64,000 nt of DNA from Sphyrna mokarran (taxonomy: Eukaryota), in contig JAGIQG010000012.1 in the NCBI GenBank assembly GCA_024679065.1, positions 25,854,001 through 25,918,000 on the forward strand, written 5' to 3'. This document shows, in pieces, positions 10,396-54,915 of this stretch. The translations under genes were made by a program, and so were the position numbers. The notes under the pieces are model-generated. The model ran no database searches, was not told the origin of the DNA, and saw nothing but the letters and a program-made list of their open reading frames with translations. Within the stretch, counting starts at the first letter, position 1. Each line of letters starts with the position of its first letter.

Positions 10396-11177
10396 TTATC
10401 TGCCAAATTGGTCATCTTTACCTCAGTGACACTATGTCATTATTTGGAGAGCTGGTGTAAACATGATAGACCAAATGGCTTTCTTCTGTGCTTTAGGTAT
10501 TCTGTGGTACCTCACAATTATTACAATCTGGTTATATATTTGATTGAAGTTTATAAAAATAAGTATAGATGATCAGGATTGGTGCAGATGAGCGACATCA
10601 TATCACACACCTCGTTCATCCTGATATTGTAAATATTATCTTCCAGTCACACTCCTAGCTGCCTTTCAAATGCTTTTGCTGTTTTCACTTCAATTGCCCT
10701 ATATAATGACTATTTAAAATATTAACCAGTCTTAATATGTAGAAATGCTTGCCAACACAATTATTCTTTATGTATGAGAATCACTTGAAGTTTAATCTTA
10801 ACATCATTCAAAATTCATAGGCCAGACTTTCATGATAGATTTGGAAATCACAAGTTGGGCCATTTCTTGATGTCTTATTCCTGAGTTCTAAATGAACACA
10901 CATGAACATGTTATTATCCCACCAGAGAATGGGTGTCAGGGATACCACCTGCCACTGTAAGTCCAAAATGGCAATAGAAATAGGCTGAGGAATCTTTCTC
11001 CATTCACTGGCACATAAGCCTATTTTAGGGATGACTGTTCAGCCTTCTAGTCTTCACTCCCAACTTCCTCAGAACTCTAACCACCTCCCATGCCCCCCTC
11101 ACACCACCTCATTTCTCTCAAGCCTTCTCTATACTTAGCCATATCTTCCATGTCCCCTCCATCCAATACCACCCATA

Positions 11178-11646
11178 TATAGAACATAGAACATAGAACA
11201 ATACAGCACAGAACAGGCCCTTCGGCCTTCGATGTTGTGCCGACCAAAATAAAAAGCAATGCCCCTCCTAACTAAACCATTCCCTTCTCATCCATATACT
11301 TATCAACTAACCTCTTAAACGCCACCAAACTTGGCGCATCTACAACAGCTGCAGGCAGGGCATTCCACTCCCTAATCACTCTTTGAGTAAAGAACCTACC
11401 TCTGATATCCGTCCTATAACTCATACCCCTTAATTTAAAGTTGTGTCCCCTCGTGCTAGCTTTCTCCATCCTAGGAAAAAGGCTATCACTGTCCACCCTA
11501 TCCAAACCTCTAATTATCTTATATGCTTCAATAAGATCCCCCCTTAGCCGCCTCCTTTCTAACGAAAACAACCTCAAATCCTTCAACCTCTCTTCATAGG
11601 ACCTGCCCTCCATACCAGGCAACATCCTAGTAAACCTCCTCTGTAC
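11178..11646 (-). mobile_element. Young CR1 subfamily A, 5'-truncated
   Basis: ORF2 C-terminus QRRFTRMLPGMEG...VDKYMDEKGMV*, a short 3' UTR and a (TATGTTC)n tail. It is nearly identical to four other copies in the window. Confidence 0.95.
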
Positions 11647-16225: not shown

Positions 16226-18875
16226 ACAAACAAAGAACAAAGAACAAAACAGCACGGGAAACAGGCCCTTTGGCTCAACGAGCCTGCACCGCCACCTCGA
16301 TGTTCCACTTCTACCCATGATCCCTGTCTATGTTTATAGATCTATGGATTGAAACCAAATTTGAGACAATTTAGGGAGTATTTGTTCTGCCAATCAGCCT
16401 AACAGCACATCTTTGGTTTGTGGAAGAAAATCAGAGCACCCAGAGAAAACCCATGCAAGCACGGGGAGAATGCGCAACCTCCTACAGACACAGACCCAAA
16501 TCATGTATCTGCACAGCACAGCGATAGTCACTGAGCTGTCGTGTTGCCCATCAAATGGTTCAGGTCAAGCATACACTAACAACATGAAGCACTAGGATAC
16601 TCTCGAAAAAATCCAAGAGCAGCCCTCTTACAACCCATCGCATCTATGCGCCTTGTTAGACAACAAGGTGGACCAAAGTACCTGTAGGATAAAACAAATA
16701 CATCAATATCATTGACTATTTACACACTTCCCTGGGAACTCCCAAGACTCATGATCCCTATTTTAAATCAGTTTTCTATATCCCTCCATTCCCATTCTGT
16801 TCATGTGCCCATCTAAGTATCTCTTAAATAACTCCAGAGTGCCTGCCTCCACCACTTTACTTGGCAGCACTTACCATACCCCCACCATCCCCTGTGTGAA
16901 AAAACTCCCTCTAGCATCCAAATTATATCTTACCCACTCACCCTAAGCCCATGACCCCTCATGCTATTTGAGTCCATCCTTGGAAAAAGCTTAACCCCGT
17001 TTACTCTACTATACCCCTCATAATCTTGTACAACTCTATTAGATCTCCTCTAAGTCTACGTCTTTCTAAGGAAAACAGTCCCAATTTGCCTAACCTCTCC
17101 TCGTAACTCAGACCTTCCATACCAGGCAGCATCCTGGAAAACCTCTTCTGCACTCTCTCCAGAGTCTCCATGTCCTTCTGGTAGTAAGGCAACCAGAACT
17201 GGACGCAGTATTCCAAATGAGGTCTAACCAACGTTTTATACAACTGCAACATTAAAGGCCAACTCTTGTATTCTATACCCCTTCCTATAAAGGCTAACAT
17301 ACCATATGCTTTCTTCACAACCTTCTCCACCTGCTCTGCCACCTTCTGAGACTTGTGCACCTGCACCCCCAGGTCGCTCTGCGTTTCTATACTCTTAATA
17401 GGTTTACTTTTTATCATATACGTCCCCCCTACATTCTTTCTCCCGAAATGCATCACCTCGCATTTATCAGGATTGAATTCCATCTGCCATCTATCTGCCC
17501 AAGCTACCAGCCTATCTATGTCCTGCTGCATCGCCTGACAATGCTCTTCACTATCCACAATTCCAGCCATCTTTATATCGTTTGCAAACTTGCTGATCAC
17601 TCCACTTACTCCCTCTTCCAAGTCATTTATATATGTTATAAATAGAAGAGATCCCAGTACCGAGCCTTGCGGCACACCACTGGTGACCGACCTCCAGCTA
17701 GAAAAACACCCTTCCACTATTACTCTCTGTTTCCTATTATCAAGCCAGTTACTTATCCATCTAGCTACCTGTCTTTGTATCCCATGAGCCTTGACCTTTT
17801 CAACTAACCTCCCATGAGGGACTTTGTCAAACGCCTTACTGAAATCCATATAGATGACATTAACGGCTCGCCCTTCGTCAACCATTTTCGTCACCTCCTC
17901 AAAAAATTCTACCAGATTCGTAAAGCACGACCTCCCTTTAACAAAGCCATGTTGCGTATCCCTAATCAGATCGCAATGCTCTAAGTGCCTATACATCCTA
18001 TTTCTAAGAATCCCCTCCAACAGCTTCCCTACCACTGACGTCAAACTCACCGGCCTATAATTTCCAGGGTTATCCCTACGACCCTTTTTAAACAACGGTA
18101 CAACATTAGCTATTCTCCAGTCTTCTGGGACCTCACCTGTGTCCAAAGAAGAGACAAAGATTTGCGTCAGAGGCCCAGCAATTTCACCTCGCACCTCCCT
18201 AAGCAGCCTGGGATAAATGTCATCAGGCCCTGGAGATTTATCAGTTTTAATGCTACCTAGAAGCTCTAACACTTCCTCCCTTGGTATGGATATTTCCCTC
18301 AACTGGTCCACAGCTCCCTCAGAGACAGGACTGGTCAACAAGCCCCTCTCCTTCGTGAATACCGACGCAAAGTATTCATTCAGGATCTCCCCCATTCCCT
18401 CGGGCTCTAAGCACAGTTCCCCTCCTCTGTTCCTAAGAGGTCCGAATTTTCCTCTAACCACCCTTTTATTCCTAACATAGGAGTAAAAAGCCTTTGGATT
18501 TTCCTTAATCCTATCCACCAAAACCATTTCATGCCCTCTTTTTGTCCTCTAACTCCCCGTTTGAGCTGCCTCCTACTTCCAATATAGAGAAGAAGAATAT
18601 TCTCTCTATATTCCCAGCTGCTTACGCCTCTCTTTTCTTCCTAACCAAGACCTCAATATCCCTAGTAATCCACAGCTCTCTAATCCTCCCTTTCCCATCT
18701 TTCCTCTTAGCCAGCACATATCTTTCTTGCAACATTTTCAGTATTCCCTTGAAAGACTCCCACATGTCTAGCATGGACTTACCCTCGAACAACCGTTCCC
18801 AATCAGTTTCCATAAGATCCTACCTAATCCGACTGTAGTTAGCCTTCCCTCAATTCAGCACCCTCTCCTTAGGGC
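16226..18875 (-). mobile_element. CR1 subfamily B, 5'-truncated (RT domain, long 3' UTR with embedded V-SINE)
   Basis: The 508-aa ORF at 17001-18527 has [17 protein letters not shown] and GVPQGSVLG, with catalytic FADD mutated to FAND. The 3' UTR is homologous to 31038-31470 and ends in a (TTTGTTC)n tail. Confidence 0.95.
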
Positions 18876-20599
18876 AACAAGCTGTGGGAGGTGGGGATGC
18901 CAGTGATAGCCATTTGGGTGAGGGGTTGGTGAAAGGGGATATGATGGTGACAATGTTCAGGCGGAGGGACATTGTTGGGAGGAGTGAAGGAAAAGAGGTT
19001 TGCCAGCCTTGACTGTTTGGGGATGATGGGGGTGGGAGGGTTACAGTGCTAGCATTGCTAGATGTGAAGGGAAGGCAAATTCCAGTGGTTCACAGGCCCC
19101 TCGGTGAGGGAACCCACAGTGGAGGAACTGGATAATTCCGGTCTACCATTCAGATCCTATAATCAGAGCACATAAAGGGACTTGTTATTTAGCCAGTTAA
19201 ATTACAAGCCCAATCATTTCAGTTATTTACACATTAGGATAGCAACGACAAATGGTACATGGGTTTAGATGCATATATGGATCATAATCTTACTCATTCT
19301 GTTTGACATTTTCATAATCCTACTCATTCTGTTCAAAATTTAAGCTTTCAGTTTGCCATCTGGCAAACCTACGGCCTTTATCATCTAAGGACAGGGAAGA
19401 GCGAGTACATAGAAATAATCTCACCTTCAAGTTCTCCTCCAAATCACACACTATCCTGACTTGGTCATGTATTGTCGCACATTCCAAATTTCTGGAATTC
19501 TCTGCTTAACAACACTCTGAATACCTTCACCACACAGATGGCCACAATTTAAGAAAACAGTCCTGCTCCATCTGTTTGGGGTAATCAATTAATAAACAAT
19601 AAATTCTGCCCATGAAAGCGTTTCCCAAAACCTAAGAATGAGCATTGAAACAAAATCATGACACAATGATGTATGGTGTTTCTTTTCTTAAACAAACAAG
19701 GCGTGATTTTCCAAATATTTTTCCCTGGCCCTTCAATAATTCTTTGAGTTGTTGCTTGTTCAGCACTTTACTGCCGGATTTTCATCGTATGCTGTGCTGC
19801 AGCTGTTCTTCCTCATATCCTTCTGTTTCCTTTAACCAAACCAGTCACAAGTAGAAATATCCTATGATCAAGTGGGAATTTATTTAATATCTTGCAATTA
19901 TACATATAACTGATGTAATGTTTGGCCCTCTTGCTAATGTTCTGAACATACATGATTAATTCAAAAATACAATTGAATTTTTGATTGTTTTAAAATTCTA
20001 AAATCCTTTGATGATATTGCCCCCTTAGGAGTTAATTATTTAAAGGAGTGTGTAAATGTACAACTTGTTTTAATCACAGAGTTTTGAATTACATTTTGCC
20101 ATATCGTAATGCACAAATTACACGTTCCCTGTTGTGAACTAATAAGTTAGTATTCCTTCAGTCTGAGCCACGGAGAGGAAATTGTTCCATTTATAATAAT
20201 GCCGCATCACAACTTTACAATTTTTCAAAGCATTCATTTTGAAGTGTAATTATTTTTGTTATGGAGGCAATAACAGGAGGAAATGAGTATACATCAAGAT
20301 TTTACAAATTGAAAATGCAGCGAGTTAATTTTTATGTTCACTTAGACAGGTACGGGGATCTCATCAAAAAGGCACCAACGTTAATGCCAACTTCAACTTA
20401 AGAGAGTGCAAAATCGGGTATTATGAGCATTGGGTGAATTGAACCCATTCCTTTCTCGTCAAGTGAGTTAGGGTTAAAATCCAGGCTACAGTGCTATGTC
20501 GCTTCAGTATCACTTTGCTTTCAATCATATTTCACTTACCTATTTTCTCATCATACAGTATCTCTATCTCTGTCTTCATTTTGGATGACTTCACCAAGT

Positions 20600-20773
20600 A
20601 GCCTCTTAGGCTAATTGGCAAAACAAATTCTCCCTAAATTGTCTCAAATTTGGTTTTTAATCCATAGATCTATAAACAAAGACAGGGATCACGGGTAGAG
20701 GTGGGAACATCGGGGTGGCAGCACGGGCTCATTGGGCCGAATGGCCTGTTTCCCGTGCTGTTTTGTTCTTTGT
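20600..20773 (+). mobile_element. CR1 subfamily B extreme 3' fragment
   Basis: Reverse-complement match to 16236-16405, ending in gctgttttgttctttgt. Confidence 0.85.
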
Positions 20774-22112: not shown

Positions 22113-22406
22113 GGGGCAGCATGGTGGCATAATGGTTAACGCTGCTGCCCCACAGCACCAGGGATCTGAGTTCGATCCTGGCTTAGGTCACTGTCTGTGC
22201 GGAGTCTGCACGTCCTCTCTATGGATTTCCTCCAGGTACTCTGGTTTCCTACCACAGTCTGAAAGATGTGCTGGTTAGGTGCATTGGCCATACTAAATTC
22301 TCCCTCAGTATACCTAAACAAGCACTAGTGTGTGGCGGGATTTTCACAGTAACTTCACTGCAGTGTTAATGTAGGCCTATTTGTGACACTAACAATAAAC
22401 TAAACT
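22113..22406 (+). mobile_element. V-SINE variant with an alternative (non-CR1) tail
   Basis: A and B boxes, V core and tail cagtaacttcactgcagtgttaatgtaggcctatttgtgacactaa, shared with 47705-48000 and 54408-54915. Confidence 0.85.
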
Positions 22407-22925
22407 GGAAGTAACTTTGTTTCTCCTCACTCCCCAAAACCTCTTCTTGTCAGTTACTGAAAATGTTATTTTCTTGGTCAACCTTCACCATGGATTTGTA
22501 ACTTTTTGCTGAGGTTGCAAATATTTTATTATTGTTTCCTCTTCTTTCCCTCATGGAACTTCCTTAGTTTTTCCATTGTTTATGTAACCTAGGCCAGATG
22601 TGGACAAACCATGGCCCAGAGGGGTAATATTTGGCTGTGGGAACTTCTAATTCAGCCCACAGCTGCACCAGGAAAAGTGTGCAACCAGGTCAGCTGAGTA
22701 ACTGACACCAATGAACACAAGCAGATATTTTTATGAAACAAATGCACAAAAGCAACTGTTTCTGGTGCCTGGCCTATTGACTTCAGGAAGTACAATGTAA
22801 ATATTTTGCTGATTCTATGTTGAGCTCTGAGGGAGGTACTTCTAACCTACAGAAGTTCTTCTTGTTATTTTGGAGCGACCAATGATTAGAGGCCAGAGGT
22901 GAAGTTTTATTGGGGATTATGTCTT

Positions 22926-23142
22926 TCTTTACTCAAAGAGTGATTAGGGAGTGGAATGCCCTGCCTGCAGCTGTTGTAGATGCGCCAAGTTTGGTGGCGT
23001 TTAAGAGGTTAATTGATAAGTATATGGAAGAGAAGGGAATGGTTTAGTTTGGAGGGGCATTGCTTTTTATTTTGGTCGGCACAACATCGAAGGCCGAAGG
23101 GCCTGTTCTGTGCTGTATTGTTCTATGTTCTATGTTCTATGT
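22926..23142 (+). mobile_element. Young CR1 subfamily A, short 3' fragment
   Basis: Encodes FTQRVIREWNALPAAVVDAPS...EEKGMV* and ends in a (TATGTTC)n tail. Confidence 0.93.
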
Positions 23143-23149
23143 CACTATG

Positions 23150-23550
23150 TTAATACAAATGGAGACAAGATTGGACAAGGCAGCCAGAAAATATAAATTT
23201 AAGGAAATAGATGAAAGGTCACTGGAATAGCTTATTGGGAGCTCTGCACACCCCAAAGCACAAAAACATTTCATTGGAAAAGACAATCTCACAATAGCAG
23301 AATACATGAAGACATGAGTAGACTGATGAAGACATTGACCACCCAAATGGCTAGCTTTCAGTTAAGTCTAGAGGAAGGATGGATGCAGTGAAACAGCAAC
23401 AAACAAAAGTAAACCAAACAGAGACTCAGGAATGCAGGAGCTATGGATGATTGCATGAGTTCACAACTAGAAGAAAATGTCCTGCACATGGATAGAAATG
23501 TAGAGTTTGTGGAAAGTCAAATCATCGGGAAAAGACGAGCAGAACAAATA
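23150..23550 (+). mobile_element. Decayed Gypsy-type gag fragment
   Basis: Translates to AARKYKFKEIDERSLE*LIGSSAHPKAQKHFIGKDNLTIAE and, downstream, KCPAHG*KCRVCGKSNH. The latter is the CPA.G..C..CGK.NH zinc-knuckle signature of Gypsy gag. Confidence 0.65.
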
Positions 23551-27780: not shown

Positions 27781-29517
27781 GCAGCGATTCTCTTAGGCAG
27801 AGATTGGCCCATGTGCAGTGGACCTGCACTGCCTGCCTTTGATTATTGGCCAGCCCTGCAAACCCTGCATCATGGCCACACTGACCCCACAACCTCCCAT
27901 TCGCTGGCCTCCTGAACCTCTGCAATTTCAAAAGATCATCTAGTTTCTCTCATAGAATCATTTAGTTCTATCGCACACAAAGAGGCGCATTGGCCAATCA
28001 TATCTATGCCAGCCATCAAGCACTTATCTATTCGGATCCTACTTTCCAGCTGGGTCTGTAGTCTTGTATGTATGGCATTTCACGCTGCTCGTTTGAATGT
28101 CTCTTAAATGTTACTGCTGAATTTAATGGACTTGAATTTCGTCTAGCAGGGTATCTAAAAACTGTTACTTAGGCTTGTTCTTGCATTCTTTCAAATAAAG
28201 AAATAGGAACACGAGTTGACAGCATGTCCCTTCTGCCCGCTTCATCAGTTAATACGATTTTGCTAATCTTGGGCTTCAATTCCATTTTCCCTTATCCCTT
28301 AAGAGTCCAAAAATCTATTTATTCTAGCCTTAAACATATTCATAGAGGCTACAAATAAAATTAAATGCTGCAGAGAAAAAGGATAAAAGAAAAGCATTTT
28401 CATTTATTTCTTCAGCTTCGCCCCCACCTCAGTGCGTAAATCCTTTTTTATCCCTAGAAGCTCTTATTCCATCTATTGCCACCTTTTTACCATATGTATG
28501 CCTATATACGATTTTGGGATTCCCAGAGAATCAGAGAGAATCCTGCATGTTAAAATATTATCCTTAAGTCCATGAGTCCTCACCTTGTCTATTAAACTTT
28601 TGTGTGATACCTTATCGAATGCCTTTTGAATATCCAGGTATACTCAAACTACTGGTTCCTTTTTATCTATCTGTTACACCCTCAAAAACACACAATAAAA
28701 TCTGTTTGACAGAATTTCCATTTAGCAAAACAATGCTGACTTGTTTTAATCTAATCAAGATTTTGTCCACAAATATTGCTGAAAGCGTGAGCTGATAACA
28801 GAGCAATGCGGATATCAGAGCAAATACAACCTGAGTGAACAGAGCAACCAAAGGAGATTTAAGGTTTGGGATCTGGACATTCACATTTAACAGCAGATCT
28901 ACTCCTCACCGGAAGCTGCTGTACCATTTGCTACAAATAACAGTGAGATTGATTAGCTCTGCTATTATTTTGATAACAATTTCTAGCCCTTTTTCTGCCA
29001 CTGTGCACCAAAATACTTTTAGTACAAACATAAATGATAGAAATAGAGAATTGCACCTCACATCTTCATGTCAGTTTTGTCTAAATACATATATGAGAAA
29101 TACAGAATAGTTTTTTTGAAAAGCTCAGAATAAGAAACAACTTTAAAAGGTGTGATGGATGGGGTGTGAGAGATGGTGGGGCTGCATTCTTTTACTGCAT
29201 ATATATTAATGATCTCTGTCATGAGTGACCTGTCCAAACATTACACCATCGGAAGTGCAGCCAGGATGATAGCAGCAGAAGGGAATGTGCAATCATGCAT
29301 TGCTCAGAGACTGACTCGTGCATTCCTGAGGGTACAGAGAATCTGCCAAGAGAATCATAAACTGCACGGTGGGAATGAGACTTCACTGCCAAGGATTCTG
29401 CTGTTTCACCCGAAATAGGCATTGCTACAGGGTGAGGCATTACACTACTTAATGTAACAGCGCAATCTAATTGCAAACAAGAACACAATATTTAAACATA
29501 CAGCCTTCCTTTACAGC

Positions 29518-31470
29518 AGGGAAGAAGTGTTGGGGCTTTTAGGTAGCATAAAGACTTATAAAGCTCCGGGGCCTGATGGTATTTATCCCAGGCTACTAAG
29601 GGAGGTGAGGGATGACATTGCTGGGCCTCTGATGCAAATCTTTGTCTCTTCTTTGGACACAGGTGAGGTCCCAGAGGACTGGAGGATTGCAAATGTAGTA
29701 CCGTTATTTAAAAAGGGTCAGAGGGATAACCCAGGGAACTATAGGCCAGTGAGCTTGACTTCAGTTATAGGTAAGCTAATAGAGAGGATCCTCAGGGACA
29801 GGATGTGTGAGCATCTGGAGCGCTGCGATCTGATCAGGGATACGCAGCATGGCTTCGTTAAGGGGAGGTCGTGCCTTACGAATCTAGTGGAATTTTTTGA
29901 AGAGGTGACAAAAACGGTTGATGAAGGACAAGCCGTTGATGTCGTCTACATGGATTTCAGTAAGGCGTTTGACAAGGTTCCCCATGGTAGGCTGATAAAA
30001 AAGGTGAAGGTGCATGGGATACAGGGCCAGGCATGTAGATGGGTTGAGAACTGGCTTGGGAGGAGGAGACAGCGGGTATTAGTGGAAGGCTCTTTTTCCA
30101 ACTGGAGGTCAGTCACTAGTGGTGTGCCACAGGGCTCAGTACTAGGACCTCTTCTATTTGTGATTTATATAAATGACTTGGAAGAGGGGGTAGGTGGTGT
30201 GATCAGCAAATTTGCTGATGACACTAAGATACTTGGATTGGCGGGGACTGAGGAGCAGTGCCAGGCAATACAACAGGACATAGATAGGCTGGTAGATTGG
30301 GCAGATAGATGGCAAATGGAATTTAATCCGGATAAATGCGAGGTGATGCATTTTGGCCGGAATAATGTAGAGGGGAGTTATAGGATAAAAGGTAAAACTA
30401 TCCGGAGTATAGAGACGCAGAGAGACCTGGGGGTGCAGGTTCACAAGTCTCTGAAGGTGTCAGTACAGGTGGAAAAGGTGATAAAGAAAGCGTATGGTAT
30501 GTTAGCCTTCATAGGAAGGGGTATAGAATACAAGAGTAGGAGTTTGATGTTGCAAGTGTATAGAACGTTGGTTAGGCCTCACTTGGAGTACTGCGTCCAG
30601 TTCTGGTCGCCGTACTACCGGAAGGATGTGGAGTCCCTGGAGAGAGTGCAGAGGAGATTTACCAGGATGCTGCCTGGTATGGAAGGGCTGTCTTACGAGG
30701 AAAGGTTGAACGTACTGGGGTTGTTTTCCCTTGAAAGACGTCGGCTGAGAGGGGATCTATTAGAGGTATATAAGATTATGAGGGGTATAGATAGAGTAAA
30801 TGGTGGTAAGCTTTTTCCACCATTAGATTCGGATAGAACGAGGGGTCACGGCCTTAGGGTGAGGGGGGCTATGTATAAGACTAATATTAGAGGGCATTTT
30901 TTCACACAAAGGGTAGTGGGGGTGTGGAATGCACTACCGAGTAAGGTGGTGGGAGCAGGCACGCTAGGGTGTTTAAGGGTCTCTTGGACAGCCACATGAG
31001 CGGTCTGCAGATAGAGGGATATAGGAGGACTGTTTAAATACTTTATTTGTTTCCACAGGCTATTCGGTCCACCTTGTTGACCAACAAGGTGCATGCATTC
31101 AGCAGGTCGTGCGAGGGCTGCTCTTGGATGTTACTTCAGGAGTGGCCTAGTGCTTCATGTCGTTAGTGTATGCTTAAACTGGACCATCAGATGGGCAACA
31201 TGACAGCTCAGAGACTATCGCTGTTGCTGTGCAGACACATGGATTTGGGCCTGTGTCTGCGGGAGTTTGCGCGTTCTCCCCGTGGTTGCGTGGGTTTTCT
31301 CCGGGTGCTCCGGTTTCCTCCCACATCCCAAAAATGTGCTCTTAGGCTGATTGGGTAACAAATTGTCCCTATATTGGTCTCTATATGTCATTAAGACGTT
31401 AGGATGGTGGCGCGGGCTCGTTGGGCCGAAGGGCCTGTTTCCCATGCTGTGTTGTTCTTTGTTCTTTGTT
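29518..31470 (+). mobile_element. Young CR1 subfamily B, 5'-truncated, uninterrupted RT domain, V-SINE-containing 3' UTR
   Basis: 490-aa ORF with intact [15 protein letters not shown] and FADDTK. One frameshift lies near 30968, and the likely native stop is TAA at 31035-31037. It ends in a (TTTGTTC)n tail. Confidence 0.96.
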
Positions 31471-31514
31471 CATCTGAGGCAACAACAGCAAAATTGGACT
31501 GCAAACAAGAACAT

Positions 31515-32020
31515 TGGATGGAATTCTCAGAAATTCTAGGTGTTCAATTAGCAGAAGAACAGGAGTAATTCACGCTGTTTTTTTTCAGTGGAAATCTCCC
31601 ACACTCTGTGCAATACAGAGGCCACCAATATGAGTATCATTAGATTTCAGAGGATGGGGCCTATTCCTGCCCAGGAGGCTGAAACCAACAGCTTCTGCAC
31701 AATATGCAGTGGGCCTGAACTGTCTGCTTCCTGTTTGCTGACCAGCTCAATTTCTGGCCAACTCGGGACCCCTGCATTCTGCCTCCAATCCTACCATGGC
31801 CCAATCTCAGCCCCCCATCCATTCCCAGGCTATCCTCGACTGCTTTCACATCCAAGGCTATCCCAATCTCCAGTCTACTTCTTTCGAATGCCAATCTTCT
31901 CCCTGCCAGAACCTCTCCCCATCCGGCAGACCATCCCCTGGCAGCCCCCTCCGCCCAGTTCATGGGCCTTTCTCCTGCCCCAACAATCCCAATGGCACAG
32001 TAGCAGCAGTGCTCCTTTAT
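31515..32020. mobile_element. MITE-like element related to 6011-7137
   Basis: Shares the start ggaattctc...aaattctaggtgt...ggagtaattcacgctgttt and has a C-rich interior. Confidence 0.5.
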
Positions 32021-33099
32021 AATGCCGAATGTAACAGCACAATCTAACTGCAAACAAGAGCACTATCTTTAAAAAGACAGCTCTCCTTTTACAGCTCACA
32101 ACTTATGTTAAAAACATTTCCACAAGGCACACATTCTTATCCGCCTATTCAAAGTCTTTATAATCAGTTACGGCAAAGCAAATATTATTTTAATGAAGGA
32201 ACCGGAATATATTTTTGACCATAATGTGCAACTTTGAATCATTATGAGTAGGTTCTAAAAAAAAATCACAAAAATGATTACACATCTCAGAAGAAATTTA
32301 CTTTTCTCGTGCAACATAACATATAGGACTAATTGTATATAATTTCATCTATATAATGAGGTTGGCTGCAAAAGTAAGTGACAAATTTCAGTGTATATTT
32401 TCCATCTGAGATTGAAATTTGCAAACCATATAGTCAGCCTGTGATTTTCCTCAGAACTTAGAAAAAAATGGATGTAGAATGTGAATGTATTAAAACAATC
32501 TCATATTGTTTGGATTTAGTTTTGAAAATTTTGTAATACAGTGTCCCAAGTGTATAATCATAGTATTCAAATTTTGGAATCTCATTAACTGGAAGCATAA
32601 TCAGGCAAGAAAGTCAGGGTCTGATTGTCTCAGCTCTTAGCCTCTTGAACATTAAAATAAATTTGCAGCTCCTGCTGTAAACATAGAAACATAGTAGTTA
32701 TACTCTTAACTGGGAACAGCAGGTATGCAATGGACATCTATCATTGATATTAATAATGTTTTATGTGGATGAAACTTTAGGTCAAGGAAAGCTGGGATAA
32801 TGGTGCTGGGAGTCTGTTGAGCGTGAACAGGGGGAATTAGGGATGAATTTTAACATGTTAGGCTAGTTGTGCCAAGCCCTCTGGCAAGTTGCCACATCCA
32901 AATCACTCTACTGGAGTAATATTTCAATTTTTACTACTTTTACATATACATGTCGTTGCCACTCAACTCTACCTCACTACCACCTCTCTCAATTCCTCTT
33001 CTAACATCAAATTATCAGACAGTCTCTCTGACACCCAGTACTGGATAAGCTGAAATTTCCTCCATTTAAATATTGGATGTCTTTGGTCCTTGGTTCAAA

Positions 33100-33689: not shown

Positions 33690-34035
33690 AGGGCAGCACA
33701 GTAGCACAGTGGTTAGCACTGCTGCTTTGCAGCTGTAGGGACCTGGGTTCGATTCCCAGCTCAGGTCACTGTCTGTGTGGAGTTTGCACATTCTCCTCGT
33801 GTCTGTGTGGGTTTCCCCTGGGTACTCTGGTTTCCTCCCACAGTCCAAAAATGTGCGGATGAGGTTGATTGGCCATGCTAAGAAATTGCGTCTTAGTGTC
33901 CAGGGATGTGTAGGTTAGTGGGATTAGTGGTATAATATGTAGGGATATGAGGGTAGGCCTGAGTGGGATTGTGTTCGATGGGCTGAAGGGCCTCTTTCTG
34001 CACTATAGGGTTTCTATGATCTTTCTATGATCTAT
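33690..34035 (+). mobile_element. HE1-like V-SINE, full length
   Basis: A box (tagcacagtgg), B box (ggttcgattcc), V core and a CR1-type tail ending in ctatgat repeats. Confidence 0.9.
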
Positions 34036-34440: not shown

Positions 34441-34944
34441 AACTAACTGTGATACAGGTTGTACAGGCAGAATGTGAATTTACTTGACATGCTGCAACAA
34501 CAGTCCTTCAGGTGTCTCAGGTTACTGTGTCATGTGTTAAAAAGCATCTGCTTGTCCTTGACATGGAGCTGCTCCCTCCATGACCTGGTAGCTGAACAGT
34601 ACACGTGCAAAAGGCAAAGTCACAACTGCCTTCAACATTTCTTTTTGTCCTTCTAGCGTTTTGTGTCCTTTCTGTGTCCTTTAGTGCTCTGATGGAGAAA
34701 TGTCCAGAATGCCCCAGTCAGCAGTGACTGGGTTCCTCAGGGATGGCAATTATGCAAAATTCAACTAAAATGCCACCAGTCAAAATGAGCATAGAGTCAG
34801 GTTTGTATTTCAGGCTGGCTTCCTAGAGGGGCAGGGCTTTATTGATGGTGGCACAAAGCAGTCTGCACATCCCAAACCCACCACGAGTGTTGTGATCTTT
34901 AAATGGTTCCAATTCAGCACTGTTACAATCACAAATTGACATAT

Positions 34945-35429
34945 TAGAACATAGAACATAGAACATTACAGCACAGAACAGGCCCTTTGGCCTTCGATGT
35001 TGCGCCGACCAATATAAAAAGCAATGCCCCTCCAAACTAAACCATTCCCTTCTCTTCCATATACTTATCAACTAACCTCTTAAACGCCACCAAACTTGGC
35101 GCATCTACAACTGCTGCAGGCAGGGCATTCCACTCCCTAACCACCCTTTGGGTAAAGAACCTACCTCTGATATCCGTCCTATAACTATCACCCCTTAATT
35201 TAAAGCTGTGTCCCCTCGTGCTAGCTTTCTCCATCCTAGGAAAAAGGCTATCACTGTCCACCCTATCTAAACCTCTAATCATCTTATATGTTTCGATCAG
35301 GTCCCCTCTTAGCCTCCTCCTTTCTAACGAAAACAACCTCAAATCCCTCAGCCTCTCCTCATAAGACCTGCCCTCCATACCAGGCAACATCCTGGTAAAC
35401 CTCCTCTGTACCCTCTCCAAAGCCTCCAC
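34945..35429 (-). mobile_element. Young CR1 subfamily A, 5'-truncated
   Basis: 130-aa ORF2 C-terminus and (TATGTTC)n tail. Confidence 0.95.
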
Positions 35430-40844: not shown

Positions 40845-42150
40845 CTGCCAGAAGACTGGAGGATAACTGATGTGGTACCGTTATCCAAGATGGAAAGTAC
40901 TTTTGACTTTTGGTCAATTATAGGCTGATGAGCTCAACATCAGTGGTAGGAAATTGTTGGAAAAAGTTTGAGGGATAGAATTAATCTCCACTTGGAGATA
41001 CAACATTTAATTAAGAATAATCAGCATGTCTTTGTCAGGGGAGATCATGTCAAACAAATTTAATTGAATTTTTCAAAGCGGTGACTAGGTGTGTAATTGA
41101 GGGCAATACAATTGCTGTATGACACGGACTTCAGAAATGCTTTGACATTTCCCACATGGGAGACTAGTCACAAGGTAAGAGTCCTTGGGATCCAGGGCAA
41201 TTAGGCAAATTTGGCATGTCAGCTATGACTCTCACCAACGTTTACAGCTGCACTATAGAAAGCATTCTTTCTGGTTATATCACAGCTTGGTAAGGCTCTT
41301 GCTCTGTCTAAGATCACAAGAAACTCAATCCTCATGCAAACCAGTCTCCCATCCATTGTTTCTGTCTTCACTTCCTGCTGCCTCGATAAAGCAGCCACCA
41401 TAATTAAGAACCCCATGCACCCCGGGCATTCTCTCTTCCACCTTCTTCCTTCAGGAAAAAGATACAAAAGTCTGAGATCACGTACCAACCGACTCGAGAA
41501 GCTTCTTCCCTGCTGCTGTCAGATTTTTGAATGGATTTATCTTGCATTTTCTCTACACACTAACTATGACTGTAATAGTCCATTCTGCACTCTCTTGTGT
41601 ATTTCTCTATGAAGGTCTTGTCTGTATAGTGCACAAGAAACCATACTTTTCATTGTATGTTAATACATGTGTTGATAATAAATCAAATCAAATCAACTTG
41701 GATCCAAAATTGGCTAAGTGGCTTGAGGCAGAGGTTAATGGTCAAAGGCTGTTTTTGTGTTTGGAAGTCTGTATCCCATGGTGTGTTACAGGAATCAGTG
41801 CTGGACTCCTTGCTGTTTGTAGTGTGCATTAATGATTTAGATGTGAATGTAGGGGCATGATCAGTAAGCTGGGAGATGACATGAAAATTGGTATGGTAAA
41901 TAGCGAGGAAGAAAGCGACACAGACTGGCTGGTCAGATGAGTAGAACTGTGGCAAATGGAATTTAATCCTGAAAAATGTGAAGCAAGGACTAACAAGCAA
42001 GGGACACATACAATGAACAGAAGGATGCTAGAAAATACAGAGGAACAGAGGGATCTTGGGATGCATACGCAAAGGTCCCTGAAGGCAGTAGGACAGCTAA
42101 ATAAGATAGTTAAGAAGGCATACGGATATTTACTTTAATTAGCCAAGGCA
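40845..42150 (+). mobile_element. Old CR1 RT fragment interrupted by a Rex/Babar element
   Basis: Relics of PEDWR, QHGFVRGRSC, QESVLDSLLFVVCINDLD and MEFNPEKCE lie on both sides of 41215-41696. Confidence 0.8.
41215..41696 (+). mobile_element. Rex1/Babar-type LINE 3' fragment
   Basis: LTNVYSCTIESILSGYITAW and IIKNPMHPGHSLFHLLPSGKRYKSLRSRTNRL are typical Rex/Babar C-terminal motifs. It ends in an (AAATC)n tail. Confidence 0.8.
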
Positions 42151-44850: not shown

Positions 44851-45240
44851 TGGGCAGCATGGTGGCATAATGGTTAGCACTGCTGCCTCACACCTTCAGG
44901 GATCTGGGTTCAATTCCCAGTTTGAGTCACTGCCTGTGTGGAGTTTTCACATTCTCCCCATGTTTGCATGGGTTTCCTCCCACAGCCCAAAGATGTGTTG
45001 GCCATGCTTATTTGCCTGTTTCGGTGCATTTAGTTGACAGAAAGACTTCATACTGAATGAACACACAGATTCCATATGTGTTTAAACAGTTGAGGAAGGA
45101 GCTTCTTTGTCTAATCTGATCTAAGTTATAACGAGAAACTCTTAGTGTCTCGGGATGCATAGGTTAAAGGGATTTGCAGAATAAATATGTGGGGTTACAG
45201 GGATAAGGCCTAGGTGGGATTGTTGTCGGTGATTCTATGA
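44851..45240 (+). mobile_element. HE1-like V-SINE carrying an internal foreign insertion (about 45017-45139)
   Basis: A and B boxes and V core run to ggccatgcttatttgcc, then the SINE resumes at cttagtgtctcggg (45140). Confidence 0.85.
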
Positions 45241-46110: not shown

Positions 46111-47704
46111 GAAGAAAGAATATAAGGGGAGTTACGGATTTGTATTGTTTATTGCATAGCATAGGTATTTCTAACTCTTCCTGTGCTTCATTTGAAGCTC
46201 CCATTGACCTTCTGTCTTGCAAACCAGTTAATAAAGACTGTGATTTCCCAAAACATTTTTATTCCAGGCAATTACACAATATCAATGGTTATGCAGTTAA
46301 AACTTAGGTCAGACTAGAGAAAGAAGCTCCTTCCTCAACTGTTTAAACACACATGGAATCTATGTGGTCACCCAGAATGAAATCTTTCTGTCAACTAAAT
46401 GCAACACCAAAATGAGATCACTGGAAAAAGGAAATGTCCTCATATGGACTAAAATGATTGCCTATTGAAAAATGTGAAGTGGTATCACAGCGTCCCTTGT
46501 TCACTGTGTCTGTAACTCCCAACCTCCTTTCTGCATAGTTTATGTAAAGGGTAAATGAAAGGGAGCAGTGATGGATTGAAAAATAAACAATTGAGTGAGA
46601 TCAGGAAGTCTGTACCATTCACAGATTGATTTTTCACCAAACCAATCAGCTTTTGACTGTAAGCTATAGTTTCCACTTCTGAAACCTCGACAAATTGACA
46701 AAGAATTACTTTGCTTCAAAAAAATGCCGGTGGCACCTATGAGGAGAAATGAAACAAGGTCTGTGAATATAGGCAATCCCAATAGTGGCAAAATTATCCA
46801 CATTGTGTGAAGATGGAAATTATTCCCAGCAATGTTATCACTTAATATGCTCAGAAGGAATACCTCCCATTGTTACTTTAACAGATCCATTAATGAAGGT
46901 GGATGGTGATGAGGAACCATTCAACTTCTATTAGAAAGGTTGAAAAACGGGGTGGAATTTCTCATTTTCTGCTGCTTGAGTGAGAAAATTGGTGTGCAGC
47001 TCGCAGGCTGCACAGTTAGCTATTCTCACCAGATGATCCAGCACTCTGTGAGGAAAAATCTGCAGACATGGCCCACTCCATCATCCTGTTGGCTGGATGA
47101 GGCAATAAATACAAGAGTACTGAACAATCTCTGATAGAAGCAATAGGAACCCTCCCCTCCACATCCCATCACCCCCCACACACACAACACAGACCCCCCA
47201 TGCCCTACAGACATGGGGAACACCTCCACCCCCATCACAGCCTCCCCCCTGCTTTCATCAATAAGGGAATCCTTCTAAGGGAGCTCCCCAGACAGCCCTC
47301 TTAGCACTGCTGTCTATCACTGCTCAGGGAGAAGCTCCAGGATGTTAGGTACCAGTGCTAAGGTGCTAACAAGGCATGTCTCTCTCCACCTGGGGCAATG
47401 CTTATCTGTGTATTCACTTCCTGTGGATTCCCTTGGCCTGGTTCTCTCTATTTTTAAAAACTTGTAAACCCCAATGGTGAGAGATCCTGATGTGAGGGAC
47501 AATACAGCAGGGATGCTCTTTAACTAGATTCAAATTTATTGAAATGAGGTTCCCGACCTTTCTGGGCAGAAACCTCATCACATCATGAGTGGGGAGAATG
47601 GAAAATGAGAGCTTGCTGGTGAGATTCTTGTTTTCGACTCTGCCGATACTTTGTGTCCGTATTGCCCTTTGCACTGTGGTGAATGCAGATTCAAAATTGC
47701 AGCC

Positions 47705-48000
47705 AAGGTGTGGCACAGTCATTGGCACTGCTGCCTCGCAGCGCCAGGGATCCGGGTTCAATTCCCAGCTTGGATCACTGTCAGTATGGAGTTTGCACAT
47801 TCTCGCTGTGTCTGCATAGGTTTCCTCCAGGTCTGGTTTCCTCCCACAATCCCAAAGACTTGCTGCTTAGGTGGACTGGCCGTGCTAAATTCACCCATAG
47901 CGTACCTGATCAGGCACCAGATTGTGGTGACTGGTAGGATTTTCACAGTAACTTCATTGCAAAGTTAATGTAGGCCTACTTGTGACACTAATAAATAAAT
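47705..48000 (+). mobile_element. V-SINE variant with alternative tail
   Basis: A and B boxes, V core and a tail as at 22113-22406. Confidence 0.85.
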
Positions 48001-48364
48001 TCAATTTAAACAAATTTGATATTGAAACACGTTCTAAAAATGGCACTGTCAGTGGTCAATTTTATCCTTTGAACTCAGAGTTTGCAAATGGTGATCTCCA
48101 CTGCCCAAACTTTCCAATGGATTTTCCTTGTCAATTTCGATGTTTCTCTGTACAGATCCTTCCCAGCAGAGAGCAAGTAAATCCATTCAGATGGTGGCAA
48201 ATTGGTATTGTCACTAGACTAGTAATGCAGAGATCCAGGGTAATAAGGGGACTTGCATTCGAGTCCCACAATTCAAATAGTGAAACTTGAATCTAATAAT
48301 ATCATTATAATATAATGATGACCATGAAACCATTGTCATTAAAAACCTGTCTGGTTCATTAATG

Positions 48365-48460
48365 CAAGAGCCATACTGAGCTATGATGCAATTGGAAAGA
48401 GTGCTTTCAATGATGCATCTGTAAAAATTGGTGAGAGTCGTAGTTGACATGCCAAATTTG
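48365..48460 (-). mobile_element. Rex/Babar fragment
   Basis: Encodes MSTTTLTNFYRCIIESTLSNCIIAQYGSC. Confidence 0.75.
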
Positions 48461-50164
48461 CCAGATCTTACTACAGTTTGTCAAAAAAAATCAAGAGGGC
48501 GTGTTTCACTCCATCACAGGGGAGAGGGAAAGTGGGGGAGGGGGTTTGCTAAACGTGCCAGTTAAACACAGCAATGCAATGCTTTTAAATATCCCCCCAG
48601 TCATAATCTATATAAACCTCATGCCCAGCCCACTACAGAGATCTGGGGACTCTCCTCCCCACTCCTGAATATAGTCGGCCCCTTCTCTGCTCTCCCAATC
48701 ATTGGCCTCAATCTGAGCTGGCACCTACCTTACCCCCACATCCGCCTTCACCAGCATCCCCAGCGATGACCACACCTAAATGGATCTCCCATGAGGTTCC
48801 CACTGGGCACCACATATTGGCACTGTCAAGTTGGCACTGCCAGGTTGGCATGAGCATGGTGCCAACATGTGCCATGAGAGAATCCCTGGGAGTGTTGTCA
48901 GGGCATTACCAAGCCTTGTCCCTCACTCCTGGGAGCTGCATGTATCTTTACACCTGAGGGGAGACTCCCACGACAGGCTCTGTGTGAACTTGTTGCAAAC
49001 CACGTTGGTTGCAATATTTGGTGGGAGTGGTCAATATCTGGTGAGGGTGTGAGTTAATAGCATTTAAATATATTCAAATGAATGATACTGTGGAGTAGAT
49101 GTGAAATTGCGTTCTCTCTGGCAAGGACTGCAACTTGCAGATTTTGAGGCTCTGCTGACATTTGCAGATAGCGAGCGTAGGCTCAAGATCAAGCCTGTTA
49201 ATTCTGTTTCTCTCTCCTCAGACTTGTTGAGTTTTTCCAGCACTTTTTGTTTTTATTAAATCTAATGTATAAAATGAATTAATATCAGCAGTGACATTGC
49301 CACTAATCTACAGTGATTTGAAGTCATATCAGTTGGTGGGGTTTTCTGTCTCCCCTGATTTCTTTCTGAAAACCAACAATTCTGAAATCCGATATTTATT
49401 AGATCCGAAGGTTGCTGGATTGGAGGTATTCTATCTGTAACTACAAAACGTCTTTGTTCATGGGGATGGATATTTCTCTCACTCGAGTTAAAATAAGTGC
49501 TACAGTCCCATGTATTTTATTCCTAGCTTGTGAAATGGTTGTGGTATTTGCTCAGTGCTCTGCAGTACAATCTTCACAAATCTCACAATCTGCCTCTGAA
49601 TAGCCCTGTGAATTTCTGTCCTTTCAACCAGAGAAAGTTTTTTGTGGCCTTGATTCTTCCACAGGGCATTGAAATGTGACTTCATAATAATGTAATTCAA
49701 TTAAAAATAACACATGGGACTTGTTTAGAAAGCTAATAAAGACTGATGCATTGCAGATTTGACTTTTAGAACAGTTGTGAAGTAGAATCTGTAAATGCCA
49801 ACAAAGATATTGGAGATTAATGAGTTTCAGTGCCAGCTACCTTCATCTTTACATTCTGGATGCACTTTAAAACTTGAAATGATGAGGGAATTCCTGCAAT
49901 AAATTTCAGATGAAATAAGCAGCTCTTCAATTTAGTTGGAGAAACATTGGAACAGATGTGACCCATTTAATTTATTATCATTCAAATAAAATAGCCTGTA
50001 CCTGATACATCCTCCTTTCTTTCATAGATTAATGCCTTTTACATCTGGTTTTTGCATCATTACTACTCTTTTTTTGTTCATTTTACTCCTTCTGCCCACA
50101 TTGATAGGCGGTTGTTCTTGGGCATTTTTTATTCCCCTCATTCCAGCATTACCATTAGCACCTA

Positions 50165-53240: not shown

Positions 53241-54407
53241 AAGATTCAAAGGCTGGCAAAAGTTTTGAGCTTTCTAGGAAGGTTCGGAATCTTGAAAAGA
53301 TTGTGTCTGAGTGAGCTGCTGTGGGTGAAGTGAATTCCCCCACCCCCACTGAAAGTGACTTCTCCTGTGAATCAGAGGACTTCAAAGGGTTGTTCTGACA
53401 CCTGCTTCTTAGAAAGAGAAAGGGAAAATCCTTTCTAAAGAATGAAATGATGCTGTGATTTGAAAGCCTTCCAGGTGTCTGGAGAACATGGAGATTAAAA
53501 TGACTAAAGTGTGTTTTCACAGCCCACACACAAGAATGAAAATTTTGATCAGAAAGATGCCTGAAATCACTATGCCAAGAGTGATCTACAGGTTTCTAGG
53601 AATAGGAATCTAGAATCAACTCCTTGCCCCCAGCCGGAGATTCCTGAACCACCAGGTCCTTTGGGGACCAAAGACGGGGGTGGGGAGTGTCCTGAGGAGA
53701 CCCTATAATCAGAGTCTTCCTTTGGGGGGGGGAGGAGTCAGGTTACCCTCATGATATAGGGATGCGGGGAAGGGTGAGGACAGGAGGGTTAACCTGTGCT
53801 CTCAATGGTATGGGGAGGGTCCCTTTCTGTGTTGGGTGGTTCAGAGTGTCCCCAGGTCAGCCAGAGAGTGGCCTTTTCCATTATGGAGGGAAGGGAGCCT
53901 GTATCTGAATACTGAGATTGAAATATCCTTTAAAAATGGCATCCCAACGTCAGAGACTCGGGGCCGGCTGGAATGTTTCCTGCAATGTGTAAATTTGCAT
54001 CGATTAGATGGGCGAATCAGATTTAACTGGCATTGCTAATGCCAGCGAGAAACACTCTAGTATGGACACCTAGAGCCAATTCAGGGAATCGTGCCCAGAA
54101 TCAAACTGTCAGCAATGATTTCCATGATGTTTTAACTTTGTGAATTTTTTTTAAGCTACTATTCATTTATTCTCGTCCTCACTCAGATTTCTTCCTCCAC
54201 TCCCACCTATCTGAGGGTGCATTCATATGAAGATATGCTCCAGTAGACGTGTCAGCTGGCATTTTTCATCAATGCAGATACCTGTGATGTGAACAGGCTA
54301 TCGCACCATGGAAAGATAATCAGATTTGAAGTGATTCTGAGACCAACTCTAAGATCAGTGACTGCTCTAGCCTATATTGTTCAGTATCATCTTCCCAATT
54401 AAGCCAT

Positions 54408-54915
54408 TTGGGTGGTACAGTGATTAGCACTGCTGCCTCACAACACCAGGGACCTTAGTTCAATTCCCATCTTCAATCACTGTCTGGCATTAGCAACGCT
54501 TGTTAAATCTGATTCGCCCATCTGATCGATGCAAATTTACACATTGTGGGAAACATTCCAGCCAGTCCCGAGTCTCTGACATTGGGATGCTATTTTTAAA
54601 GGATACTTCAATCTCAGTATTCAGATACACGCTCCCTTCCCCCCACAATGGAAAAGGCCACTCTCTTGCTGACCCATTCTCTCTGTGTCCGCTTGAGTTT
54701 CTTCTGGATGCCTGTGTCTGTTTGGGTTTCCTCCAGGTGCCCCAGTTGCCTGCAGTCTGAAAGACATGCTGGTTAGATGTATTCGCCATGCTAAATTCTC
54801 CCTTAGTGTATCCCAACAGGCGCCAGAGTGTGGCGACTCGGGGATTTGCACAGTAACTTCATTGCACATTAATGTAAGCCTACTTGTGACACTAATAAAT
54901 AAACTTTAAACTTTA
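54408..54915 (+). mobile_element. V-SINE variant (alternative tail) interrupted by an inverted local duplication (about 54484-54673)
   Basis: Head at 54408-54486; the V core resumes near 54675; tail as at 22113-22406. Confidence 0.85.

What the first reader, a model, noticed from the sequence alone, without database searches (positions are those of the whole stretch)
31038..31470. CR1 LINE subfamily that has adopted a whole V-SINE, with its Pol III promoter disabled, as its own 3' end
Seen: after the ORF2 stop, this element reads gggcaacatgacagctcagagactatcgctgttgctgtgcag from 31193. That aligns with the tRNA-derived head of the free SINEs in this window (gggcagcacagtagcacagtggttagcactgctgctttgcag at 33691), but the B box (ggttcgattcc) is deleted. 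A well-preserved V core (31252-31355) and the terminal CR1 motif with (TTTGTTC)n follow. An independent, clearly diverged copy (16226-16700, minus strand) has the same architecture and the same B-box loss, and a third 3' fragment lies at 20600-20773. The SINE was therefore part of the transposing master LINE and not a local insertion. Established: SINEs normally borrow 3' tails from LINEs, and the function of the V domain is unresolved. Inference: the flow was reversed here, from SINE to LINE. The V core persists across two sublineages while the head and downstream spacer drift, which suggests it benefits the LINE RNA. I cannot tell whether this has been described.
Basis: partly seen in the sequence, partly recalled or inferred. 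Interest (0 to 1): 0.8.

Follow-up and report, generated by a model that had tools for sequence, protein, structure and literature searches.

The report
Shark LINE carrying a captured SINE
A self-copying CR1 retrotransposon, probably from a shark or ray, has swallowed the front two-thirds of one of its own parasites (a V-type SINE, with its promoter broken) into its untranslated tail and kept it through a long lineage split, which offers a natural setting in which to test what the enigmatic V domain does.

Summary
Mostly real, partly misread. Two CR1 copies (A 29500-31470 +, B about 18860-16226 -) and a 3' fragment (C, 20596-20773) share a long 3' UTR. In A and B it holds a degenerate tRNA-like SINE head and a V domain, with the same B-box deletion. 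A and B group together in both ORF2 and head+V trees, and their fourfold sites are only 66% identical, so the cassette travelled in two active master lineages. Other CR1 families here have 41-52 nt between stop and terminal motif and no V, so the flow was SINE to LINE. Two claims fail. (1) Not a 'whole SINE as 3' end': the terminal motif resembles another CR1 family, the post-V spacer is unlike the free SINEs, and a 13-nt repeat in B suggests a 434-nt insertion ahead of the LINE's own tail. (2) The head does not drift: it is 93% identical between A and B, V 85%. The whole cassette is conserved, not V alone. A 2016 paper says such domains had not been found in LINEs; my 10 searches found no report, but Dfam/Repbase were unavailable. 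Evidence rests on three local copies; function is untested.

The parts
29500..31037 (+). Copy A: 5'-truncated CR1 ORF2 (RT domain and C-terminus), FADD motif intact, 1-nt frameshift near 30970, stop TAA 31035-31037
   Evidence: named relatives are CR1-type RTs, 65% to Chiloscyllium, 56% to Mobula, 42-54% to birds and turtles
31038..31192 (+). Upstream UTR segment of unknown origin, shared only with copy B; holds two hairpins (31070-31091 and about 31119-31148) and a 17-nt stretch (31055-31071) complementary to the terminal motif
   Evidence: 79% A versus B; no other clear copy in the window; no Rfam match; folds
31193..31251 (+). Degenerate tRNA-derived V-SINE head; A-box region altered, 18-nt B-box segment deleted at about 31251
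31231..31260 (+). Hairpin across the deletion: the SINE's basal head/V stem, shortened from the tip and extended to 9 pairs; kept in B with G-U pairs
   Evidence: z -3.5 (0 of 200 shuffles) in A, -3.4 (2 of 200) in B; pair probabilities 0.93-1.0; pair counts
31252..31355 (+). V domain
   Evidence: 63-81% identical to 8 free V-SINE copies; about 10 mismatches and 2 gaps in about 103 columns, counted by eye, against the MER6 V consensus printed in the supplement of PMC6887750
31356..31407 (+). Post-V spacer, shorter in A than in B and C; not homologous to the 3' part of the free SINEs
31408..31470 (+). CR1 terminal stem-loop motif and (TTTGTTC)n repeat, LINE-type
16763..18860 (-). Copy B: 5'-truncated ORF2 of a second sublineage (5' end approximate), catalytic motif reads FAND, several frameshifts near the C-terminus
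16226..16762 (-). Copy B 3' UTR: upstream segment (to 16550), head (16549-16493) with the same deletion, V (about 16492-16388), long spacer, terminal motif and repeat
16747..16759 (-). First copy of a 13-nt direct repeat (12 of 13 identical), 3 nt after B's stop codon; candidate target-site duplication
16313..16325 (-). Second copy of the 13-nt repeat, 434 nt downstream, 50 nt before the terminal core
20596..20773 (+). Copy C: 3' fragment of the B type (3' edge of V, long spacer, terminal motif)
33691..34030 (+). Reference free V-SINE with intact B box and a different CR1-type tail (one of 12 free V-SINE pieces in the window)

Best explanation
A CR1 LINE family whose master acquired, just behind its ORF2 stop codon, a cassette of about 430 nt made of about 200 nt of unrelated sequence plus the head and V domain of a V-SINE, while keeping its own terminal stem-loop and (TTTGTTC)n repeat. 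SHOWN: the cassette is in both sublineages and was copied in cis with ORF2; the B box is gone; the cassette has diverged much less than fourfold sites; it is predicted to fold into a chain of hairpins. INFERRED: (1) it arrived as a retroposed insertion with a 13-nt target duplication; (2) the tip of the SINE's head hairpin, which carries the B box in its loop, was then lost by slippage between short repeats, leaving a shorter, tighter stem; (3) that loss was tolerated or favoured because, with an intact promoter, every LINE copy, however truncated, would be a Pol III-transcribed SINE with a perfectly matching tail, competing for ORF2p; (4) the passenger has since come under purifying selection as a structured 3' UTR of the Pol II transcript (RNA stability or RNP assembly), the constraint covering head, V and part of the upstream segment alike, while RT recognition stays with the native terminal stem-loop (stringent-type recognition as in PMC4176376, abstract read).
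For: A+B monophyletic in head+V (100/100) and ORF2 (100/99). A=B differ from the free-SINE majority at 20 of 57 head and 8 of 104 V columns, plus the 18-nt and a 1-nt deletion. Non-CpG identity A/B: fourfold 74/105, head 50/53 (p 0.0004), V 80/90 (p 0.002), tail 31/33 (p 0.005), upstream segment 101/122 (p 0.04), second codon positions 361/393. Stop-to-terminal-core distance 44, 41, 52 nt in three other CR1 families, 386 in A, 487 in B; removing the 434 nt between B's 13-nt repeats leaves 53. Last 38 nt closest to CR1 family F2. No V in the 9 other CR1 3' ends seen in the window nor at E<0.8 in 31 of 31 distant CR1-like loci, 10 of which have over 500 nt after ORF2. One outside sequence, P0001, has a V part closest to A (score 138, against 107 for B and 99 for the best free SINE) yet continues into a B-box-side peptide like free heads, as expected if the deletion is the derived state. 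Whole UTR folds with z about -2.6 in both copies (1 and 2 of 100 shuffles).
Against: Only two copies show the ORF2-UTR-V junction; no further junction copy came from one DNA-pattern scan (0 hits), two peptide searches or the profile search (149 other listed hits of 398 nearly all confined to V), and no eukaryote genome collection was available. The 13-nt repeat is seen in B only (A has deletions at both places), is moderately unlikely locally (63 of 5000) and unremarkable across the whole UTR (115 of 1000). The terminal-motif tree is weak (67/73), and the 20 nt before the core are slightly closer to some SINEs (up to 75%) than to F2 (55-60%). The B/C spacer weakly resembles CR1 ORF2 ends (26 and 15 of 500), as a borrowed SINE tail would. 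Covariation in the basal stem is not above shuffles (172 of 500). Low divergence could reflect a late UTR exchange. Many 'derived' head states may be inherited from a donor family absent here: a frog V-SINE consensus shows some of them (by eye).
Confidence: 0.55

Rival explanations
1. Whole-SINE replacement. The LINE read through or template-switched into a complete partner V-SINE whose tail had earlier been borrowed from this LINE lineage, and that SINE became the 3' end; the upstream segment is old flank or old UTR.
For: Order head-V-spacer-CR1 tail is that of a complete V-SINE; the spacer weakly resembles CR1 ORF2 ends (26 and 15 of 500 shuffles); the 20 nt before the terminal core are up to 75% identical to free SINEs; P0001 shows that a B-box-bearing element with this V type exists; a SINE family with this tail could exist elsewhere in the genome.
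Against: None of the 12 free V-SINE pieces here has this spacer or tail; no remnant of an original sense terminal motif stands out between stop and head (best 7 of 200 shuffles among 36 comparisons); B's 13-nt repeat restores a normal-length UTR; P0001's N-terminal residues do not match the B/C spacer better than free SINEs.
Confidence: 0.25
2. Neutral passenger. The cassette gives no benefit; it looks conserved because the UTR was exchanged between the A and B lineages (template switching or conversion) after their ORF2s had diverged, or because V is re-homogenised by abundant free V-SINEs.
For: UTR segments at 83-94% against fourfold sites at 70% fit a younger common ancestor; each copy carries post-insertion decay spread over all codon positions (13/11/12 and 14/11/20 changes), so the head may be nearly identical at master level; third-position identity rises to 0.77-0.78 in the last 120 codons compared; MER6 carries a V domain while evolving at about the neutral rate (PMC6887750, sections read).
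Against: Divergence is uneven within the UTR: 34/45 in its first third, 50/53 in the head, large indels after the stop and in the spacer; the ORF2 C-terminus next to it is at 42/60; A and B share V states absent from every free copy (3 of the 8 shared columns).
Confidence: 0.3
3. Reverse direction: this LINE UTR is the source from which V-SINEs took their body (an extension of the LINE-origin hypothesis for SINE bodies, PMC5786205).
For: A's V looks closer to the published cross-vertebrate V consensus than to decayed local SINEs (by eye); Kojima 2018 shows LINE UTRs have supplied SINE bodies.
Against: The V is preceded by a tRNA-like head with a promoter deletion; V-SINEs span cnidarians to vertebrates with many different tails (PMC4824008, PMC5804259, passages), whereas this CR1 family sits among V-less relatives.
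Confidence: 0.04
4. Local artefact: independent SINE insertions into two LINE copies, a segmental duplication of one locus, or an assembly chimera.
For: Only three copies, all within 16 kb.
Against: Codon-position bias of the A/B differences, shared deletions and upstream segment, different 5' truncation points, similarity ending exactly at the tails, opposite strands.
Confidence: 0.03

Closest known systems
Elasmobranch HE1 V-SINE / HER1 CR1 LINE pair (listed in PMC3747384 Table and PMC4824008; the Ogiwara 1999 and 2002 papers could not be read)
   Same: tRNA head, V domain and CR1-type tail in a shark-like genome; the free SINEs in the window fit this description
   Different: There the SINE shares only a 3' tail with the LINE; here head and V lie inside an ORF2-coding element, B box deleted.
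MER6/MER6A MITE (PMC6887750)
   Same: A V domain captured from a V-SINE by another mobile element and amplified with it
   Different: Host is a non-autonomous Mariner DNA element, the tRNA head was not taken, and no constraint on V was shown; here the host is an RT-coding retrotransposon and the cassette is in its transcript
Ingi-3_AC, R4-1_ADi and RTE-1_DAn (PMC5786205)
   Same: LINE consensuses with SINE-like or tRNA-like sequence; SINE-to-LINE recombination is offered as possible for Ingi-3_AC
   Different: The Ingi and R4 cases are in 5' UTRs and concern the RTE-derived half of Ceph, not V; the position in RTE-1_DAn is not given; none is a CR1 with head plus V in the 3' UTR
LINE-1 chimeras with Alu and small RNAs (bioRxiv 10.1101/2025.02.02.635956, abstract and outline only)
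   Same: LINE RNA recombines with SINE or small RNA during insertion
   Different: As far as the abstract says, these are individual insertions, not a family that kept the passenger through a lineage split
BovB elements with SINE-derived ends (recalled, no call supports it)
   Same: If the recollection is right, an active LINE family carrying SINE pieces
   Different: RTE clade; passages searched in PMC6036668 and PMC13295347 did not state it

Membership tests
CR1 clade LINE | ORF2 with RT domain of the CR1 type | tested here: met
   RVT_1; the best 120 hits are vertebrate CR1-type RTs at 42-71%. No clade-level RT phylogeny with reference consensuses was run.
CR1 clade LINE | 3' terminal stem-loop motif followed by a short tandem repeat, no poly(A) | tested here: met
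CR1 clade LINE | Endonuclease domain, ORF1 and 5' UTR | not testable with these tools
   all three copies are 5'-truncated
CR1 clade LINE | Short 3' UTR as in neighbouring CR1 families | tested here: not met
   386 and 487 nt against 41-52 nt; this is the variant feature, not a defining one for the clade
V-SINE (for the embedded segment) | V central domain | tested here: met
   nhmmer E 7e-20 and 9e-19 with a free SINE; by-eye match to published V consensuses
V-SINE (for the embedded segment) | tRNA-derived head | tested here: met
   modest on its own: E 0.008 (A), 1.2 (B); 6 and 28 of 2000 shuffles; in register with V; ARAGORN and Rfam find no tRNA
V-SINE (for the embedded segment) | Intact internal Pol III promoter (A and B boxes) | tested here: not met
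   B-box segment deleted in both copies; so the segment is SINE-derived, not a SINE
V-SINE (for the embedded segment) | Own LINE-derived tail and independent mobilisation | tested here: inconclusive
   spacer and tail do not match local free SINEs; no copy starts at the head; a donor family elsewhere is not excluded (P0001)
HE1/HER1 pair | Sequence identity with HE1 and HER1 consensuses | not testable with these tools
   PMC155270 not held; HE1 not in the searchable supplements of PMC4824008, one file unsearched; no Dfam/Repbase

The most novel reading that the evidence does not exclude
The first autonomous LINE family to carry a SINE highly conserved domain under selection: the V domain and its basal hairpin act in cis on the LINE RNA as they do on SINE RNA, and the shared V homology lets V-SINEs pick up this LINE's tail by recombination, so the family is both a beneficiary of V and a nursery for new SINEs (P0001, with A-type V and a B-box side, could be such a product or the donor). 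This would revive the SINE-LINE tail-exchange hypothesis that PMC5804259 set aside because no such domain was known in LINEs.
Probability: 0.2. Interest if true: 0.8.

Novelty: new variant of a known kind. Interest (0 to 1): 0.55.

Why it matters
[quoted passage not shown] A coding CR1 family with V in its own transcript is a counter-example and gives a clean in-cis test: V-plus versus V-minus in a retrotransposition reporter, and rate comparisons against synonymous sites of the same element, which free SINEs cannot offer. It also matters for repeat annotation in sharks, where truncated copies would be miscounted as SINEs. The interest is limited because capture of SINE pieces by other elements is known (MER6), the data do not single out V, and a repeat library may already hold the consensus.

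Tried and rejected
Rfam: 0 matches at gathering threshold in the window, 4 chance-level matches (E 1-7) at 30900-31600; ARAGORN 0 genes. Outside copies: DNA pattern from the upstream segment, 0 hits in genome contigs; antisense peptide over ORF2 end and upstream segment, 0 of 2 candidates; antisense peptide over tail and V, 1 of 1 candidate, P0001; profile search, 398 hits, 150 listed, judged from the table only: the 149 besides P0001 score at most 58 bits and nearly all cover V alone; they are unnamed and some could derive from human MER6, so their sequences stay unchecked. ORF2 search found no relative above 71%. Which local SINE type was the donor: 7 against 6 diagnostic columns, 2 neither, unresolved. 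Long-range pairing of 31055-31071 with the terminal motif: probability 0.87-0.96 in A but 0 in B, shuffles 13 of 300 for A's own tail and 105 of 300 for B's, and its one compensatory pair can be two CpG transitions; not claimed. Covariation in the basal stem not above shuffles. The B window for the upstream hairpin cut the stem (z +1.1); one search gives 0.67-0.88 for it. In one search the F3_24613 anchor was misplaced; one search corrects it. Target-site duplications around A, B, C themselves: none convincing. The head's excess of changes on the stem branch (20 against 3, versus 8 against 12 in V, p 0.003) was considered as adaptive remodelling but is equally explained by a different donor family. 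The metagenome and viral contig collections stayed unchecked, as did any eukaryote assembly, Dfam and Repbase.

Full report
SETTING. The window is repeat-rich vertebrate DNA, 41% G+C. It holds several CR1 families and 12 free V-SINE pieces. That it comes from a cartilaginous fish is an inference: among vertebrate-named relatives of copy A's ORF2 the closest are Chiloscyllium (65%) and Mobula (56%), birds and turtles give 42-54%, two entries labelled as bacteria at 68-69% are presumably contaminants, and V-SINEs are reported absent from amniotes (PMC6887750).

THE OBSERVATION. Copy A has an open ORF2 from 29458 to 30999, a one-base frameshift near its end and a stop at 31035-31037; A and B both match RVT_1. 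A self-comparison aligns A and B over 2066 columns at 78%, ending exactly at the tails. A free SINE hits both UTRs across head and V (E 7e-20 and 9e-19). The V identification was checked by eye against published consensuses (about 10 mismatches and 2 gaps in about 103 columns against MER6; supplement passage of PMC6887750). Both copies lack the same 18-nt segment and one further base; the B-box motif (consensus recalled) occurs in 6 of 8 free heads and in neither LINE head, though the motif is not enriched window-wide (17 matches, 19 expected). The head alone is only modestly significant (E 0.008 for A, 1.2 for B; 6 and 28 of 2000 shuffles; 0 of 164 control windows as high). Fragment C is of the B type but starts at the 3' edge of V.

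IT TRAVELLED WITH THE MASTER. A and B differ at 50, 42 and 125 of 426 first, second and third codon positions, and at 42 of 125 fourfold sites, so most of their divergence arose under selection on ORF2, in separate active lineages; each also carries some later decay. They form one clade in a head+V tree of 10 rows (100/100) and in an ORF2 tree of 9 rows (100/99). Independent insertions or a duplicated locus do not explain this.

DIRECTION. Three other CR1 families measured have 44, 41 and 52 nt from stop to terminal core, against 386 and 487, and the 9 other CR1 3' ends seen carry no V. In 31 of 31 distant CR1-like loci (26-71% identical; 10 with over 500 nt beyond ORF2) no V, head or upstream segment was found, bar one hit at E 0.88 inside an ORF. 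V-SINEs are spread from cnidarians to vertebrates (PMC4824008, PMC5804259). One outside translation, P0001, has a V part best matched by A (138, B 107, best free SINE 99), shares the reading frame produced by the one-base deletion, and runs on into a peptide whose best, third and fourth matches are free-SINE B-box regions; its last 23 residues match nothing in the window. It is a single protein-level observation, but it fits a B-box-bearing ancestor or sister.

NOT THE WHOLE SINE. The last 38 nt of A, B and C are 79-84% identical to CR1 family F2, 58-71% to the three other LINE families and 55-74% to six free SINE tails; a tree of the terminal 58 nt groups them with F2 and F3, weakly (67/73). 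The post-V spacer does not match 7 free SINE 3' parts (149, 201, 379 of 500 shuffles) and only weakly matches LINE ORF2 ends (26, 15, 188 of 500). In B a 13-nt direct repeat (12 of 13) lies 3 nt after the stop and again 434 nt later; removing the interval gives a 53-nt UTR. The repeat is unlikely locally (63 of 5000), not UTR-wide (115 of 1000), and A has deletions at both sites. I therefore favour an internal insertion ahead of the native tail about two to one over whole-SINE replacement. About 140 nt upstream of the head are conserved between A and B, found nowhere else in the window and match no Rfam family; their origin is unexplained.

WHAT IS CONSERVED. Without CpG sites, A/B identity is 74/105 at fourfold sites, 42/60 at the ORF2 C-terminus, 101/122 in the upstream segment, 50/53 in the head, 80/90 in V and 31/33 in the tail. 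Head, V and tail each exceed fourfold sites (p 0.0004, 0.002, 0.005); V does not differ from head (p 0.37) or upstream segment (p 0.24). The head changed at 20 columns before the A/B split and 3 after, V at 8 and 12 (p 0.003); a donor family unlike the local SINEs explains this as well as remodelling does.

STRUCTURE. In four free SINEs folded, the 3' head and the start of V form a long hairpin with the B box at its tip. In A and B the tip is gone and the base is a 9-pair stem (z -3.5 and -3.4; pair probabilities 0.93-1.0). The outer five pairs hold in most of 9 sequences (7/9, 9/9, 8/8, 7/8, 6/8), the inner three mostly in A and B; covariation is not above shuffles. The deletion runs between short similar G-rich words, seen directly in the alignment, which suggests slippage. 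Both UTRs fold better than shuffles (1 and 2 of 100).

MECHANISM. Best reading (0.55): insertion into the master's UTR, loss of the B-box tip, carriage in cis, and selection on a structured UTR rather than on V alone. Steps shown: carriage, promoter loss, low divergence, predicted folds. Steps inferred: the insertion route, the reason for B-box loss (it removes a ready-made SINE from each copy), and any benefit. The rivals on origin (whole-SINE replacement, 0.25) and on maintenance (neutral passenger with UTR exchange, 0.3) answer different questions and are not exclusive of each other.

LITERATURE. Ten searches: V-SINE, CR1, shark; HE1, HER1, SINE, shark; none listed a report of a V domain in a LINE. 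Seen: PMC5786205, main text parts 1-4 of 5; PMC6887750, parts 1-2 of 5 and supplement passages; passages only of PMC4824008 (2 of 3 supplement files searched), PMC3747384, PMC11481361, PMC13343379, PMC6036668, PMC7245038, PMC5804259, PMC5499810; PMC13295347, term search with no hits; abstract and outline of PMC4176376 and bioRxiv 2025.02.02.635956. Ogiwara 2002 was not held. PMC5804259 states that no such domains had been found in LINE sequences. Known partial precedents are MER6, Ingi-3_AC and RTE-1_DAn. Supplements of PMC13343379 and PMC5786205, not opened, hold or may hold consensuses that bear on novelty, as may Dfam and Repbase.

VERDICT. A real, apparently undescribed variant: a CR1 family with a SINE head and V domain built into its 3' UTR. 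Interest 0.55.

Noticed in passing
window 11177-11646 (-), 22925-23150 (+), 34940-35429 (-), 57239-59090 (+), 62757-63673 (+): Five copies of a young CR1 family (F2), 94-99% identical to each other, with a short UTR and (TGTTCTA)n tail; its terminal motif is the closest to that of the V-bearing family.
   Followed up: partly
window 22114-22412, 47698-48010, 54403-54920: A second V-SINE type whose tail has no CR1 motif and matches no LINE in the window; its partner is unidentified.
   Followed up: partly
window 53855-54045 and 54484-54674: 191-nt inverted pair at 92%; the right arm interrupts a V-SINE exactly at the head/V boundary (head 54403-54487, V from about 54690), suggesting a MITE-like insertion.
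   Followed up: no
window 45025-45132 / 46296-46403 and 41204-41302 / 48364-48462: Two further inverted pairs (90% and 82%); the first lies inside the V-SINE that begins at 44852.
   Followed up: no
window 31055-31071 and 16673-16685: A stretch at the start of the conserved upstream UTR is complementary to the CR1 terminal motif (14 of 17 in A, 11 of 13 in B); predicted to pair in A only. Could be a remnant of an antisense CR1-type tail.
   Followed up: partly
window 31042-31060 and 16700-16681 (-): Both copies have a pyrimidine-rich run followed by CAG|G at the 5' edge of the conserved UTR, resembling a splice acceptor; not tested.
   Followed up: no
window 29451-29517 and 32028-32095: A 68-nt repeat (85%) lies directly upstream of copy A and again 550 nt downstream of it; an 11-mer from it also occurs at about 31499.
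   Followed up: no
L001-L031: 31 contigs in bacterial and archaeal genome records encode CR1-like RTs (26-71% to copy A), presumably eukaryote contamination; two in an Aeromonas record reach 61 and 71%.
   Followed up: partly
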